Shown here: in pieces, positions 31,217-62,586 of the stretch
Layout: each line of letters opens with the position of its first letter
How positions within the stretch are numbered: the stretch's first letter is position 1
Source of the DNA: Promethearchaeota archaeon
GTDB taxonomy: Archaea > Asgardarchaeota > Lokiarchaeia > Sigyniarchaeales > SOKP01
Length of the DNA stretch: 64,000 nucleotides
NCBI GenBank assembly: GCA_030603385.1
Contig: JAUVXW010000006.1
Location: 32,001-96,000 of the forward strand
Reading direction: 5' to 3'
The notes under the pieces: model-generated
What the model was told of the DNA's origin: nothing
The model's input: only the letters and a program-made list of their open reading frames with translations
Databases searched by the model: none
Program-made: the position numbers and the translations under genes

Positions 31217-32713
31217 TTACTTTTTTTCTAATTTGATTGATTTACAGTTTTTTCTTTTGGTGCCAGCAATCCTTTCTAATAAGGGTTGTCCTGGTTTAAC
31301 CTCCTTTAAGCTTTTAGATTCTATTAATCCTGCTTTAATTGCATCTTTATAGATTTTATCACCTTTTTTGTTTCGCGTAATTACTGTAGACCAACCACTA
31401 GGGGACCCAATCGATCCGACAGAAATATCAGCATAATCAGCAGTTAAATCCTCACAAAAATGACAATTATGGCGAGCGTAGGATTTAACTTCTTTTAAGG
31501 GTACTCCAAAATCTTCACCCGAATCTAAATATATAATAAATTTGCCCCCACTTATATCCATTTTAGTAACTTTTTTAAAATCTTTATCAAATTGATCTTT
31601 AATTAAATTAAGTACACCTTCATATGGAAAAGATTCCATGCAGAAAAGCCCTATTCTATATTTGATGTTTTTGAAAAAAGGTTGTCCACTTGGAAATAAA
31701 TACCCTTTTTTCAATGCATTCATCATACAAGGAACTCCTACGACTGCAATATTTTCGTACTTTTTTGTTTCATCAATGATACTCAAAGTTGAGGCATTAG
31801 CGTATTTAGTGCCACTGGTTTTGTACAGATCTTTAACATTTTCAACTATTACTGGCTCTGGTTTCCATAGTTCCTCTGAATGTTTAACAGCTACAATTGC
31901 ATCAACTAATTTATTCTTGAGTAAATATTCAAGTAAAGAAGTAACTATCCCCCCATCTTGTCTTACTTTTTTAATATTGTCTTTAGTGGTGGTGGCAGAA
32001 TATGTATTAATATAGCCATTAATTTTTTCTGAAAATTTTAAAGATTTATCAAGTTTATTTATACTTTTACCCGCTTGTTCAATTGAAAATGATCTCGGGC
32101 AAACAGAATAACATAAACCACATTTCATACATGTTTCATCATTGATCTCTAAAGTATCTGCTGTGACTGTAATGGCATTTACAGGGCAAATTGATGAGCA
32201 CCAACCACATTGACAGCATACTTCAGAATCAAACACAATAGAAACAGGTTCAAAAAAATGTTCAATAAAATCATCAGGTATCTCTTTAACTTGATATCTA
32301 TAGAAAAATTCTTTTTCCTCGACTTCTTTTTCTTCTCCCTTTATTTTCTTAATAACGGTTTTGGTTTTAACTTCGATATGTTCTTCGATATATCCTTGTT
32401 CTTTAAGATAAATAATATCACAAATGACGTTTTCTGGTGGAAAATCTTTTAGAATTTTTGAAATTTCCTCTAAAAATAACGGTTCCTTACCTATTAATGC
32501 CTCTAACACTAATTTACGCTCTGTTTCAGCATCGATCATAGTATCTATTATTTCATAAAATTCTTCTTCAGAATATTTTCCAGTTTTCAAAATTTCATCT
32601 TTTGCTTCGAAAAATGCCCTAATTTGAAAGTTTTCAATTGCTTTATAGGTCGCATCCATTAAATTCTTTGGAGATATTCCATCGAAATTTAGATTTTTTG
32701 AAATTTGAACCAT
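31217..32713 (-). CDS. FrhB/FdhB-family protein with N-terminal winged-helix-like extension
   Basis: CCQCGWCSSICP, QDGGIVT, VGVPC, GLFCME, CHFCED, DISVGSIGSP. Confidence 0.88.
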   Translation of the reverse strand: MVQISKNLNFDGISPKNLMDATYKAIENFQIRAFFEAKDEILKTGKYSEEEFYEIIDTMIDAETERKLVLEALIGKEPLFLEEISKILKDFPPENVICDIIYLKEQGYIEEHIEVKTKTVIKKIKGEEKEVEEKEFFYRYQVKEIPDDFIEHFFEPVSIVFDSEVCCQCGWCSSICPVNAITVTADTLEINDETCMKCGLCYSVCPRSFSIEQAGKSINKLDKSLKFSEKINGYINTYSATTTKDNIKKVRQDGGIVTSLLEYLLKNKLVDAIVAVKHSEELWKPEPVIVENVKDLYKTSGTKYANASTLSIIDETKKYENIAVVGVPCMMNALKKGYLFPSGQPFFKNIKYRIGLFCMESFPYEGVLNLIKDQFDKDFKKVTKMDISGGKFIIYLDSGEDFGVPLKEVKSYARHNCHFCEDLTADYADISVGSIGSPSGWSTVITRNKKGDKIYKDAIKAGLIESKSLKEVKPGQPLLERIAGTKRKNCKSIKLEKK

Positions 32714-32783
32714 ATTTCCGTCCTTTTGGATTACATTTTTAAAAAATTTTTATTTTTAATTGAATACTATTTAAAAACCCCTT

Positions 32784-32843
32784 CCCTTGCAAGGTTAGTC
32801 TTCTTATAACTAGAATTTGTTTATAAGAATCATTCTGCAGGGG
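32784..32843 (-). promoter_or_regulatory. Eukaryote-like SECIS element downstream of / overlapping the end of Sec-mvhD
   Basis: mRNA: CCCCUGCAG-A-AUGA-UUCUUAUAA-ACAAAUUCUAG-UUAUAAGAA-GA-CUAACC-UUGCAAGGG = helix I, AUGA/GA core, perfect 9-bp helix II, A-containing apical loop. Confidence 0.85.
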
Positions 32844-33291
32844 TAGTTATAACTTGTTTTGTATCAACTTTCATTTCTTCATCTTCTAAGTTCAGTGGAC
32901 TTGGTCCAGCTTTTTTTACCTTTTCGTAAGCATCCTCGACAGATTCGACAAATTTCCCAGCATCTCCTCCACTTAACCAATACATATTTATTCTTTGACT
33001 ACCGAAACCTCTAGATTCTAAGATTCTATTTGCTAAATCAACATGCCTTTCGGCTGTGAAATTACCGTTTTTAAATTGACATTCATTAGGTCTTCAACCA
33101 ACAATCATAACACCATCAGCTCCCGCACGAATGCTATACAAAATGTGCTTAATGTCAACTCTCCCAGTACATCTTACTTTGATAATTTTTACCGCAGGAG
33201 TATATTTTAATCGGGAAACCCCAGCTAAATCAGCTGCGCTATATCCTCATTTTAAGCAAGCAAACACGATTATATTATACGTATTATTCAT
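32830..33291 (-). CDS. mvhD: Selenocysteine-containing MvhD/VhuD (2 Sec), 153 aa
   Basis: Missing from the ORF track. Manual translation: [27 protein letters not shown]...VRCTGRVD...MIVG-U-RPNECQF...YWLSGGDAGKF...PAE*. TGA at 33247-33249 and 33094-33096 align with Cys of the three Cys paralogs. Confidence 0.92.
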
Positions 33292-33297
33292 GTTTAT

Positions 33298-35274
33298 TTA
33301 ACCACCTCCTAAAAGACCATCAATTTCAGCAAATAATTGATGATCGCGATAATATCTGATATCAATTGCTTGAGTAGGACAACACGTGGCACAAATACCG
33401 CATCCGTCACAATTTATTTCATCAATAAACGCACCGATATCCTTTTCAATCCTAATGGCATTTTTAGGACATTCTTTTTCGCATCGTCTACAAGAAATGC
33501 AGAATTCACTGTCCACCTCAGCAGTAATAAGTTCTATATCGATTTCTCCTGGTGATGTTAACTCAGCAACTTTACTTGCAGCAGCTCTAGCTTGAGAAAC
33601 TGAATAAGAAATATTTTTCGGTCCTTGAGCAAATCCAGCTATAAAAATGCCTTTCGACTTAGTCTCTTGCGGCATTAAACCGAAATGTGATTCTGTTAGA
33701 AAGCCATAAGTGTTAGTATCAAGATTTAAGACTTCTACAATTTGTTGGGTACCTTTTGAAGGGAGTGCTGCTGTGGATAACACAACTAAATCAGCATCAA
33801 TTATTACAATCTTATCTGTTAATGATGAATATACTCGAACTTTCACGTTTTTTGTTTCAGGATCTTCAGAAATTTCACCTACCTTCCCACGAATCATTCT
33901 AATACCAGCGTCTTTAGCTCGTTCATAGTATTCTTCAAATCCTTTTTCAGGAGTTCTTATGTCAATATAACAGATTGTAATGTTCGCATCAGGAAATTCT
34001 TCTAAAAGCAATCGCCCATTCTTTAGAGCAAGCATACAACACACTCCGCTACAATAAGTTCTTTCTGTTTCTCTACTACCAACACATTGAATAAAAACAA
34101 TTTCCTTAGGTTTCTTATTATCTGAAATTCGATGCACATGGCCTTCAAGTGGTCCATTTGGAGCTAATATTCGTTCTAATTGAACTTGAGTTATAACATT
34201 TTCAAATTCTCCATATCCGTATTCACCAAAAGGTTCATGTATGTCCCAACCAGTTGCTATAATGATTGTACCAACCTCGACATTGACTTCTTTGGGTTCT
34301 TGACTAAAATCAATAGCATCCAATTCACAAGCATCTACACACGAAAAACATTCTACACATGCATTTCTATCAATATCATATAGAAACGGCACTGCTTGGT
34401 CAAATGGAATATCTATTGCCCTTCGTGCTCCTAAATTTTCATCGAAATAATTCGTTGTATAAACTGGACAGACTTCAGCGCAAGCACCACACCCATTGCA
34501 TTCATCTGTTGTATATCGCGGTTTTTTCTCAATAGTTACGTTATAATTACCGACATATCCTTCGATATTCTTTACTTCACTATAAGTTAATAATTCAATA
34601 TTATCATTTCTATTAATTTTTAACATCACTGGACCACAGATTCAGATAGCACAGTCATCTGTAGGAAAAGTTCTGTCTAATTGAGACATTCTTCCTCCTA
34701 TCGTAGTCTTAAGTTCTACCAGATACACCTTAATACCTTGATTCGCCAGATCTAGAGCTGCGTTCATACCCCCGATCCCTCCTCCTACAACTAAAGTGGC
34801 TTTAGTGACAGGAACAGTTTTAATAGGAACAGGTTCTAAGCGTTTAGCTCTTTCAATACCACTTTTTACTAAAATTTTCGCTTTTTCTGTAGCTTCTTCT
34901 TTGTTATCAGTACACCATGAACAGTGTTCACGAACATTGACCATTTGAAAGTAATAGGGATTTAAGTCTGTTTTAGCAATTGTACCCCTGTAAATCACTT
35001 CATGAGTTCGAGGGGTTCAAGCCGATGCTACTATTCTATTTAGATTCTTTTCTTTGATATCCTCTATTATCTCATTTTGTGCATTATCAGTTCAAAGAAA
35101 TGCATTCTTCTTTGAGATTATAATTTCATCAGGAAATTCGCTTTTAACATATTCTACTAGTTCATCGCAGTCAACTTTGCTTCTTATGTCTGTATTAAAA
35201 ATTTGAAATAAATTTTTTTTTATACCTCACTGACATGCATAGTATCCAATCCGATGATTTTCATTACTAATCAT
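33298..35274 (-). CDS. hdrA: Selenocysteine-containing canonical-size HdrA (4 Sec), with a putative 30-nt intron at 35190-35219; alternative start 35289
   Basis: One continuous frame joins track ORFs 34642..34998 and 33298..34629. TGA at 35227-29 (ACQ-U-G), 35092-94 (FL-U-T), 35017-19 (SA-U-TPRTHE) and 34642-44 (DDCAI-U-ICGP), each at a Cys position of the paralogs. Confidence 0.92.
35190..35219 (-). other. Putative 30-nt BHB mRNA intron in Sec-hdrA
   Basis: GUAU/AUAC central helix, AAA and AGA bulges, AAAAAUUU/AAAUUUUU intron stem; canonical cuts yield U-G-I-N-I as in the paralog motif CGINI. Confidence 0.65.
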
Positions 35275-35567
35275 TCTTTTTTTACACATCCACCTCGTGC
35301 TTTTACAAAATTGTATATAAATAAATTTCTTAAATGTATATTGGATCATTTTTAAGTTCCAATATAGATCTTTAGGTCACGATCAATATTAAATATTTTT
35401 TTTAATAGTTTATTCATTTTCAATGTTTTTAATACTTACTATTTATCGATATAATCAAATTTTTATGGAACGGTCGCAACATTAAAACATTTTTAACCAG
35501 ATTGAAAGTTTTTGGTTATTTAATTTTGGAAAGTGTTAAAGAAAGTTGGGTTTATGATCGATCTTAA

Positions 35568-62156: not shown

Positions 62157-62586
62157 ATGTCTAAAGATAAAATAATAAAGGTTCTTGTATGTAAGCCTGG
62201 GCTTGACGGGGGTTTTTAGAGCCTCCGGGCTTAACGGGCATGATAGAGGAGCCAAAGTTTTGGCTAGAGCTTTAAGAGATGCGGGAATGGAAGTTATTTA
62301 TACAGGTATCCATCAAACGCCTGATGACATCGTTAATACTGTCATCCAAGAAGATCCTGATGCAGTAATGTTAAGTATATTATCAGGATCTCATAATGCT
62401 CTTTGTCCTATTATTATGCAAAAACTTAAGGAACAAGGTATCGATGATGTCCTTGTAGCTGTTGGAGGTATTATCCCTGATGAAGATAAACCTTTCTTAG
62501 AGGAACAGGGTTTGAAGGGATTTTACGGACCAGGAACTAATTTGAGTACGATTGTTGAATTTGTGAAAAACAACTTAAAAAGATAA
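62157..62586 (+). CDS. Cobalamin-binding small subunit of acyl-CoA mutase, split by a 28-nt intron: join(62157..62205,62234..62586), 133 aa
   Basis: GGTGA RBS (62146-50), ATG 62157. Exon 1 MSKDKIIKVLVCKPGL(D) plus exon 2 GHDRGAKV...SILSGSH...VGGIIP...GPGT. The unspliced frame stops at TAG 62217-19. Confidence 0.88.
62206..62233 (+). other. Putative 28-nt BHB mRNA intron
   Basis: Complete hBHBh': outer helix GCCUG/CGGGC, central helix GGCU/GGCU, bulges UGA and UAA, 9-bp intron hairpin; canonical cuts remove exactly 28 nt and restore the frame and DGHDRG. Confidence 0.82.

What the first reader, a model, noticed from the sequence alone, without database searches (positions are those of the whole stretch)
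35185..35229. Second BHB micro-intron (30 nt, in frame) right after the first Sec codon of hdrA
Seen: the unspliced frame reads ACQ-U-G-IKKNLFQIFN-TDIRSKVD, an AT-rich 10-residue insertion in a motif that is CHCGINIG in all four paralogs here. The mRNA forms central helix GUAU(35225-22) : AUAC(35195-92), bulges AAA(35221-19) and AGA(35191-89), intron stem AAAAAUUU/AAAUUUUU with one A.A mismatch, and a weak outer helix that includes the UGA itself. Cutting after the second bulge nucleotide removes 35219-35190 and creates AAC, giving U-G-I-N-I-R-S-K-V-D. The conserved GINI therefore appears at the EndA-predicted junction. The motif is more relaxed than the one at 62206. Inference: splicing and Sec recoding act on the same few nucleotides.
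Basis: partly seen in the sequence, partly recalled or inferred. Interest (0 to 1): 0.9.

Follow-up and report, generated by a model that had tools for sequence, protein, structure and literature searches.

The report
tRNA-type mini-intron in selenoprotein hdrA
A 30-base insert sitting seven bases after the first selenocysteine codon of the hdrA gene of this Asgard (Loki-type) archaeon is very probably a tRNA-style intron that must be cut out of the messenger RNA, one of several such mini-introns that have landed independently in this gene in related genomes.

Summary
hdrA (minus strand, 35274-33298, four in-frame TGA) carries a clean 30-nt insertion (35219-35190) inside the motif C-Q-U-G-I-N-I. 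About 100 orthologs from related genomes and metagenomes were surveyed, and none has it. The flanks form a bulge-helix-bulge (BHB): a 4-bp helix GUAU/AUAC, 3-nt bulges AAA and AGA, and an 8-bp A-U inner stem. Cutting after the second bulge base restores exactly the ortholog sequence GGTATAA|ACAT. A composition-preserving shuffle gives this about 4.5e-4 of the time.

Context decides the reading. The same gene carries BHB mini-introns at four other sites in other genomes. These contain stops or break the frame, and one shows an exon-intron compensatory change. In this genome, rnhB, a zinc-ribbon gene and the mutase gene at 62206 carry equivalent introns. Two EndA paralogs and RtcB are encoded.

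The weaknesses are real. This BHB is the least stable of the set (+2 kcal/mol at 37 C). The insert is in frame and free of stops. It is a singleton.

The suggested coupling between splicing and Sec decoding has no support.

This scan has already noted such Asgard mRNA mini-introns on other DNA. In print, only the crenarchaeal cbf5 intron is comparable.

The parts
33298..35274 (-). hdrA gene: heterodisulfide-reductase subunit A with four Sec codons. The start ATG at 35274-35272 follows a GAGGTG Shine-Dalgarno-like site. The stop is at 33300-33298.
   Evidence: Translation with TGA=U. Pfam Fer4 and Pyr_redox_2 matches. HdrA of 5ODC at E 1.7e-60. In orthologs, stops lie just upstream of the corresponding Met.
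35220..35274 (-). Exon 1: 55 nt, M-I-S-N-E-N-H-R-I-G-Y-Y-A-C-Q-U-G-I plus the first base of the Asn codon.
35190..35219 (-). The 30-nt BHB mini-intron AAAAAAAUUUAUUUCAAAUUUUUAAUACAG. It is in frame and contains no stop.
   Evidence: Clean insertion relative to all orthologs. BHB geometry. Shuffle test 4.5e-4.
33298..35189 (-). Exon 2, beginning AC-AUA-AGA-AGC (completes Asn, then I-R-S-K-V-D...).
35227..35229 (-). First Sec codon (UGA), 7 nt upstream of the 5' splice site. It forms part of the weak outer helix.
   Evidence: The other Sec codons lie at 35094-35092, 35019-35017 and 34644-34642.
35222..35225 (-). Exon strand GUAU of the 4-bp central helix. It pairs with 35195-35192 (AUAC, intron).
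   Evidence: four Watson-Crick pairs.
35192..35195 (-). Intron strand AUAC of the central helix.
35219..35221 (-). 5' bulge AAA. The predicted cut lies between 35220 and 35219.
   Evidence: The rule of cutting after the second bulge base reproduces the ortholog sequence.
35189..35191 (-). 3' bulge AGA. The predicted cut lies between 35190 and 35189.
35197..35217 (-). Intron hairpin: 8 A-U pairs (35217-35210 with 35204-35197) closing the loop AUUUC (35209-35205).
62206..62233 (+). Splicing restores PGLDGHDRGAK.
   Evidence: central helix GGCU/GGCU, bulges UGA/UAA, inner stem of 7 or more bp, outer helix of 5 bp.

Best explanation
The 30 nt at 35219-35190 are an archaeal bulge-helix-bulge (BHB) intron in the hdrA pre-mRNA, gained recently in this lineage.

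Inferred mechanism. In the transcript, the last exon bases GUAU pair with AUAC near the 3' end of the insert. An A-U hairpin inside the insert and a short exon-exon helix flank this pairing, so two 3-nt bulges are presented on opposite strands. The splicing endonuclease EndA (two paralogs in the genome, consistent with a two-subunit enzyme) cuts after the second base of each bulge. RtcB then joins the exons, giving ...UGA GGU AUA A|AC AUA AGA..., which encodes C-Q-U-G-I-N-I-R-S-K-V-D as in every ortholog.

Shown: the insertion, its uniqueness, its BHB geometry, the exact restoration of the ortholog sequence, equivalent introns that cannot be translated in the same gene elsewhere and in other genes here, and the presence of EndA and RtcB.

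Inferred: that cleavage and ligation really happen, and how efficiently. The BHB is weak and the insert is in frame without a stop, so some unspliced mRNA may also be translated into a protein with 10 extra residues.
For: (1) The insert is a clean 30-nt insertion. It is absent from 37 congeneric orthologs, from 38 metagenome contigs and from 80 genome-contig loci. The closest sequences read GGTATAAACAT.

(2) The BHB is in the correct register: 4/4 central helix, 3-nt bulges, 8 of 9 inner pairs. The canonical cut falls on one of only two placements compatible with the indel. The shuffle probability is 4.5e-4.

(3) The same gene in other genomes has BHB inserts at four other sites. Site A' is 30 nt, directly before the same UGA, in L152. 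Site B is 39 nt with an in-frame TAA or TAG, in 3 loci. Site C is 34-35 nt and breaks the frame, in 5 loci. Site D is 30 nt, in L130. All have 4/4 central helices, and the rule-based cut restores the conserved codons. At site C the exon Cys codon TGT/TGC covaries with intron A/G (U-A to C-G).

(4) The same genome holds 30-nt introns of identical layout (1+9+5+9+4+2) carrying in-frame stops. One lies in rnhB inside the motif GIDEAG-R-GP. Another lies in a zinc-ribbon gene (CPK|CG). There is also the 28-nt mutase intron.

(5) The rnhB intron is kept at the same codon in at least 15 congeners and is precisely absent in one. Its central helix is 94.6% paired, its inner stem 92.1%, and its outer helix only 44.6%. 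A weak outer helix is therefore normal in this system.

(6) The genome encodes two EndA paralogs and RtcB.

(7) The insert has no counterpart in solved HdrA.
Against: The insert is a singleton, so no covariation test is possible for this intron itself.

Its BHB is the weakest of the seven compared: +2.0 kcal/mol at 37 C, against -3.4 to -23 for the others. Competing folds are more stable.

The first inner pair is an A.A mismatch, and the outer helix has only 3 of 4 pairs, one of them G.U.

The insert is a multiple of three and free of stops, as a translated insertion would require. Length 30 is, however, the standard size class here, and freedom from stops in about 10 AT-rich codons has a chance of roughly 0.3 (my estimate).

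No independent assembly contains this stretch. The nearest relative, G019, lacks the region.
Confidence: 0.8

Rival explanations
1. Retained or 'exonised' insert. The 30 nt arose as a BHB intron, or as some other hairpin insertion. They are now spliced poorly or not at all, and are translated as ten extra residues (KNLFQIFNTD-type) in the loop after the C-Q-U-G motif, which the protein tolerates.
For: The insert is in frame and has no stop. Its BHB is the least stable of the set, and the MFE prefers other folds. The only other in-frame, stop-free AU-rich intron (L152, site A') has the second-weakest BHB.
Against: The insert splits a motif that is invariant in about 100 orthologs and four paralogs, and it has no counterpart in solved HdrA. 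Its exact BHB register is unlikely by chance. Introns of the same size class in this genome carry stops, so translatability is not a property of the class.
Confidence: 0.12
2. Assembly or sequencing artefact, or a rare strain variant fixed by the assembler. On this reading the real population sequence lacks the 30 nt.
For: The insert is found in this assembly only. It is low-complexity and AT-rich.
Against: Artefacts do not normally create a 30-nt hairpin in the exact BHB register, with the size and layout of bona fide introns of the same genome. The rest of the gene is intact.
Confidence: 0.03
3. A recoding element. The hairpin 10 nt downstream of UGA, or the outer helix that contains the UGA, acts on selenocysteine decoding like a Sec redefinition element, or it couples splicing to Sec insertion.
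For: The position is 7 nt after the first UGA, and the outer helix includes U-G-A. A second, independent 30-nt intron in L152 ends directly before the same UGA.
Against: All intron-less orthologs keep the same four UGA codons. Loki HdrA-VhuD pairs are reported to be served by one downstream SECIS (PMC4989117). With five intron sites in 400 nt, two lying 10 nt apart is not unexpected.
Confidence: 0.03

Closest known systems
BHB intron in the cbf5 pre-mRNA of Crenarchaeota (Watanabe 2002; Yokobori et al. 2009, PMC2738675)
   Same: A short intron inside an archaeal protein-coding sequence. It folds into a bulge-helix-bulge with exon sequence and is removed by the tRNA-splicing endonuclease and ligase. 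It is present or absent among related species.
   Different: The phylum differs (Promethearchaeota/Asgard) and so does the gene (a multi-Sec hdrA). This intron is 30 nt, in frame and stop-free, and found in a single genome. It is one of at least five independent insertion sites in the same gene, and several other genes of the same genome are also interrupted. Splicing of cbf5 was shown experimentally. Here it is inferred.
Non-canonical tRNA introns of Asgard and Thermoproteales archaea (bioRxiv 10.64898/2026.10.13.758758; Marck and Grosjean 2003, cited there)
   Same: Same motif (3-nt bulges, 4-bp helix, half of it exon), same enzyme, repeated independent gains, and relaxed motifs tolerated by two-subunit EndA.
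   Different: The host is an mRNA, so the exon half of the motif is constrained by codons. At site C a synonymous Cys codon change is matched by an intron change.
Multi-Sec HdrA-VhuD operons of Lokiarchaeota (Mariotti et al. 2016, PMC4989117; PMC11227280)
   Same: HdrA with up to four Sec at conserved Cys positions, followed on the same strand by the MvhD/VhuD gene noted by earlier readers of this window (e1-5551461; not re-checked here).
   Different: That paper mentions an intron only in tRNA-Sec (31 nt). No intron in a selenoprotein mRNA is described there.
5' UTR BHB intron found among EndA substrates in Haloferax volcanii
   Same: EndA acting on an mRNA.
   Different: That intron lies in an untranslated region, not inside a coding sequence.

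Membership tests
Archaeal BHB (EndA-dependent) intron | [quoted passage not shown] | tested here: met
   GUAU/AUAC with bulges AAA and AGA.
Archaeal BHB (EndA-dependent) intron | Flanking helices h (exon-exon) and h' (intron) | tested here: inconclusive
   h' has 8 A-U pairs after an A.A mismatch. h has only G-C, A.A, G.U, U-A. The conserved rnhB intron of the genus likewise has an outer helix only 44.6% paired. This is therefore the relaxed HBh' type rather than the strict hBHBh'.
Archaeal BHB (EndA-dependent) intron | Cutting after the second base of each bulge gives a functional exon junction | tested here: met
   The junction GGTATAA|ACAT equals the ortholog sequence GGTATAAACAT and restores G-I-N-I.
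Archaeal BHB (EndA-dependent) intron | Splicing endonuclease and RNA ligase encoded by the organism | tested here: met
   Two PF01974 EndA paralogs of about 200 aa. RtcB PF01139 at E 1.3e-167.
Archaeal BHB (EndA-dependent) intron | Structure, not sequence or peptide, conserved among homologous copies (covariation) | not testable with these tools
   This intron is a singleton. Sister introns do pass: hdrA site C shows U-A to C-G, and rnhB has 2 pairs with changes on both sides, exceeding the slid-register controls.
Archaeal BHB (EndA-dependent) intron | Excision and exon ligation observed in RNA | not testable with these tools
Spliceosomal-type GT-AG intron | GU...AG boundaries whose removal restores the coding sequence | tested here: not met
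   GU (35225) to AG (35190) spans 36 nt. Removing it would delete G-I-N and give U-D-I-R, unlike any ortholog.
Translational bypass (T4 gene 60 type) | Matching take-off and landing codons, a stop right after take-off, and a product that matches homologs | tested here: not met
   AUA...AUA exist (35223-21 and 35187-85). No stop follows the take-off codon, and the product U-G-I-R-S would lack N-I.

The most novel reading that the evidence does not exclude
The 30-nt introns form a mobile family that transposes between mRNAs, for example by reverse splicing followed by reverse transcription. hdrA would have received its copy recently from an rnhB-type intron. The placement of two independent gains on either side of the first Sec codon would be selected, because the BHB outer helix masks the UGA until the message is spliced, tying Sec decoding to splicing.
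Probability: 0.06. Interest if true: 0.9.

Novelty: new member of a known kind. Interest (0 to 1): 0.68.

Why it matters
Published work shows endonuclease-type splicing inside an archaeal coding sequence essentially only for cbf5. Here a selenoprotein gene of an Asgard archaeon, from the closest prokaryotic relatives of eukaryotes, carries such an intron.

The wider comparison adds more. The same gene has been invaded independently at five or more sites in related genomes. Each site shows clear presence/absence polymorphism, and one shows exon-intron covariation. This turns "how do archaeal mRNA introns arrive and persist" into a question that can be tested with existing genomes.

This particular intron is the borderline case: weakest motif, in frame, no stop. 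It is therefore a good substrate for asking how relaxed a BHB the Asgard EndA accepts, and whether intron retention is tolerated.

On the practical side, gene callers will mis-annotate this hdrA twice over, because of both the Sec codons and the intron.

Tried and rejected

Genome-wide censuses gave nothing usable. Three approaches were tried: strict hBHBh' plus an ORF-continuity test with off-by-one controls, compact-hairpin BHBs with a shifted-register control, and the same with ORF tests. None gave any excess over the controls. In a 31% GC genome, chance BHB-like matches and gene boundaries swamp the few real introns, and the first scan also required 150 nt of upstream ORF while the real introns lie near gene starts.

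Other copies of the insert: blastn-short found only low-complexity matches.

Independent assembly: the nearest relative by rnhB (G019, 99% identical) lacks this hdrA region. G048 has the region without the insert.

Known RNA families: Rfam gave nothing relevant in 32600-35500.

Alternative removal mechanisms: GT-AG removal and translational bypass were considered and rejected because their products do not match orthologs.

A shared AUUUC loop as proof of a mobile family was not accepted. The loop varies among rnhB orthologs, two of the three G000 examples were found by searching for that loop, and stem-only similarity is unremarkable.

Literature: four searches found no report of BHB introns in Asgard protein-coding genes. 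A fifth search located the Lokiarchaeota selenoprotein papers.

Structure prediction of the protein with the insert was not run, because it would not separate the hypotheses.

Full report
**What is there**

The gene on the minus strand from 35274 (ATG after a GAGGTG site) to 33298 is an HdrA. It has four in-frame TGA codons, at 35229, 35094, 35019 and 34644. It carries Fer4 and pyridine-nucleotide oxidoreductase domains and matches solved HdrA 5ODC_A at E 1.7e-60. Multi-Sec HdrA next to VhuD, served by a single downstream SECIS, is already described for Lokiarchaeota (PMC4989117). The related contigs are labelled Promethearchaeota MAGs from sediments.

Right after C-Q-U-G-I the frame reads ten extra residues before I-R-S-K-V-D. 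In the alignment to 5ODC_A these ten residues are a gap.

**The insertion is real and unique**

I collected orthologs from three sources:
- 37 other genomes of the same genus that keep the four (or three) TGA codons;
- 38 metagenome contigs found with the conserved upstream 32-mer;
- 80 loci from the species-representative collection.

Every one reads CQ-U-G-[IV]-N-I-[RK] with no insert at this place. The closest ones read GGTATAAACAT, where this genome reads GGTATAA + 30 nt + ACAT. Only two placements of the 30-nt deletion fit the indel: 35219-35190 and 35218-35189.

**BHB geometry**

I used the archaeal rule. On each strand the order is helix, 4-nt central helix, 3-nt bulge. The cut falls after the second bulge base.
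- a central helix GUAU/AUAC with four Watson-Crick pairs;
- bulges AAA and AGA;
- an inner stem with one A.A mismatch followed by eight A-U pairs, closing the loop AUUUC;
- an outer helix of G-C, A.A, G.U, U-A that contains the UGA.

The alternative placement fails.

I shuffled the 30 nt while keeping the flanks fixed and allowing both placements. A 4/4 central helix with at least 8 of 9 inner pairs appeared in 4.5e-4 of trials, and in 2.7e-4 when 3 of 4 outer pairs were also required.

The motif is thermodynamically poor. It scores +2.0 kcal/mol at 37 C and -2.5 at 15 C, with more stable competing folds and an MFE z-score of -0.61.

**The lineage context decides the reading**

Aligning full-length orthologs revealed other short inserts in the same gene:

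| Site | Length | Loci | Position | Coding effect |
|---|---|---|---|---|
| A' | 30 nt | L152 (Loki_b32) | ends directly before the same UGA | in frame, stop-free, loop AUUUC |
| B | 39 nt | L017, L039, L068 | Q-M-V-N\|V-R-E-H | in-frame TAA or TAG |
| C | 34-35 nt | L020, L051, L065, L071, L152 | H-C-S\|W-C | breaks the frame |
| D | 30 nt | L130 | T-P-R-T\|H-E | in frame, stop-free |

In every case the central helix is 4/4. Cutting after the second bulge base restores exactly the conserved codons.

At site C the best BHB in the neighbourhood, not the naive alignment gap, gives the conserved Ser codon. There the synonymous exon change TGT/TGC is matched by A/G in the intron, a U-A to C-G compensatory change in the exon-intron helix. 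At site B the loops differ completely while the stem is kept, with G-C/G.U and U.G/U-A changes.

L152's hdrA is only 79% identical to this one. Intron-less orthologs are 85-87% identical. Sites A and A' are therefore independent gains.

**The same genome has equivalent introns that cannot be translated**

A scan for the 30-nt layout with an ATTTC loop recovered two more cases besides hdrA.
- C17:18136-18165 lies in rnhB between GIDEAG and (R)GPVLGP. It carries an in-frame TAA, and exon 2 matches Pfam RNase_HII from profile position 9.
- C2:899-928 lies in a zinc-ribbon protein, MPEEERQIFTCPK|CGAKS, and carries an in-frame TAG.

The 28-nt mutase intron at 62206-62233 is a perfect hBHBh' and breaks the frame.

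The rnhB intron sits at the same codon in at least 15 congeners and is precisely absent in one (GGA CGT GGC). On that alignment the central helix is 94.6% paired, the inner stem 92.1%, and the outer helix only 44.6%. Two pairs change on both sides, and all slid-register controls score far lower. A weak outer helix, as in hdrA, is therefore the norm in this system.

The genome encodes two EndA paralogs of about 200 aa, consistent with a two-subunit enzyme. That enzyme type is reported to accept relaxed motifs (abstract of PMC5829648). The genome also encodes RtcB.

**Weighing the rivals**

The case for a translated insertion rests on three facts: the insert is in frame, it has no stop, and its BHB is the weakest of the seven compared.

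These carry less weight than they first appear to. Thirty nucleotides is the standard size class here, so being in frame carries little information. Freedom from stops over about ten AT-rich codons has a chance of roughly 0.3 (my estimate).

Against translation, the insert splits a motif that is invariant in about 100 orthologs, and it sits in the exact BHB register.

I put efficient splicing at about 0.8 and a retained, translated insert at about 0.12. The two are not exclusive: partial splicing would be tolerated precisely because the insert is open. An artefact, and a Sec-recoding role, each get about 0.03.

Orthologs without any intron keep all four UGAs.

**Comparison with the known**

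The mechanism is that of archaeal tRNA introns and of the crenarchaeal cbf5 pre-mRNA intron (PMC2738675). Four literature searches found no report of such introns in Asgard protein-coding genes. The recent Asgard tRNA-intron preprint deals with tRNA genes only.

Earlier notes of this scan list many similar inserts, both in this genome (histone, hdrB, elf1, psmA, uvrB, rpoA1, uL11) and in at least 32 other Asgard genomes. I used them only as leads and verified rnhB and the zinc-ribbon case myself.

This finding is thus a new member of a known kind, inside a system that appears unpublished. Four features are particular to it:
- the host is a selenoprotein mRNA;
- the intron lies 55 nt from the start codon and 7 nt from a Sec codon;
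- it is a very recent gain;
- it is the most relaxed and the only potentially translatable example in this genome.

**Limits**

My structure-only censuses of the genome were uninformative. The hint that the hdrA intron derives from the rnhB intron is weak: the 17/24 identity ranks 1-2 of 773 architecture-matched hits but is driven by the shared AUUUC loop.

Noticed in passing
L152 (Loki_b32, NJBH01000004) hdrA ortholog; also L017, L039, L068, L020, L051, L065, L071, L130: hdrA orthologs carry BHB mini-introns at four further sites (A', B, C, D). All five sites lie in the first 400 nt or so of a 2-kb gene, which suggests a 5' positional bias. L152 has two introns in one gene.
   Followed up: yes
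G000 C17:18136-18165 (L166:537-566): A 30-nt BHB intron with an in-frame TAA lies inside the RNase HII catalytic motif GIDEAG-R-GP. It is conserved at the same codon in at least 15 congeneric genomes and precisely absent in G063 (L181). It shows compensatory changes.
   Followed up: yes
G000 C2:899-928 (L167:400-429): A 30-nt BHB intron with an in-frame TAG lies at codon 13 of a zinc-ribbon (Elf1-like) protein and splits CPK|CG. Its central helix is CCAA/UUGG.
   Followed up: partly
window 62206-62233 (+): A 28-nt frame-breaking intron lies at codon 18 of the B12-binding mutase subunit. It is a perfect hBHBh' (GGCU/GGCU, bulges UGA/UAA) and is flanked by a near-direct repeat GGGCTTGACGGG/GGGCTTAACGGG.
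   Followed up: partly
all eight introns compared: The first intron base (third base of the 5' bulge) is A in all eight. The 3' bulge starts with A in seven of eight. This may be a recognition or insertion signature.
   Followed up: no
The two in-frame, stop-free AU-rich introns (site A here, site A' in L152) have the two weakest BHBs. They share length, layout and the loop AUUUC with the G000 rnhB intron. This is a weak hint of intron transposition, or of decay toward exonisation.
   Followed up: partly
whole genome G000: ARAGORN finds only 18 tRNA genes in 3.9 Mb (94% complete), including tRNA-Sec. This is consistent with tRNA genes heavily interrupted by non-canonical introns.
   Followed up: no
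L130 (NZ_DRFI01000009.1): A contig carrying a Loki-type Sec-hdrA with a site-D intron is deposited under a Maribacter sp. MAG. It is probably mis-binned.
   Followed up: no
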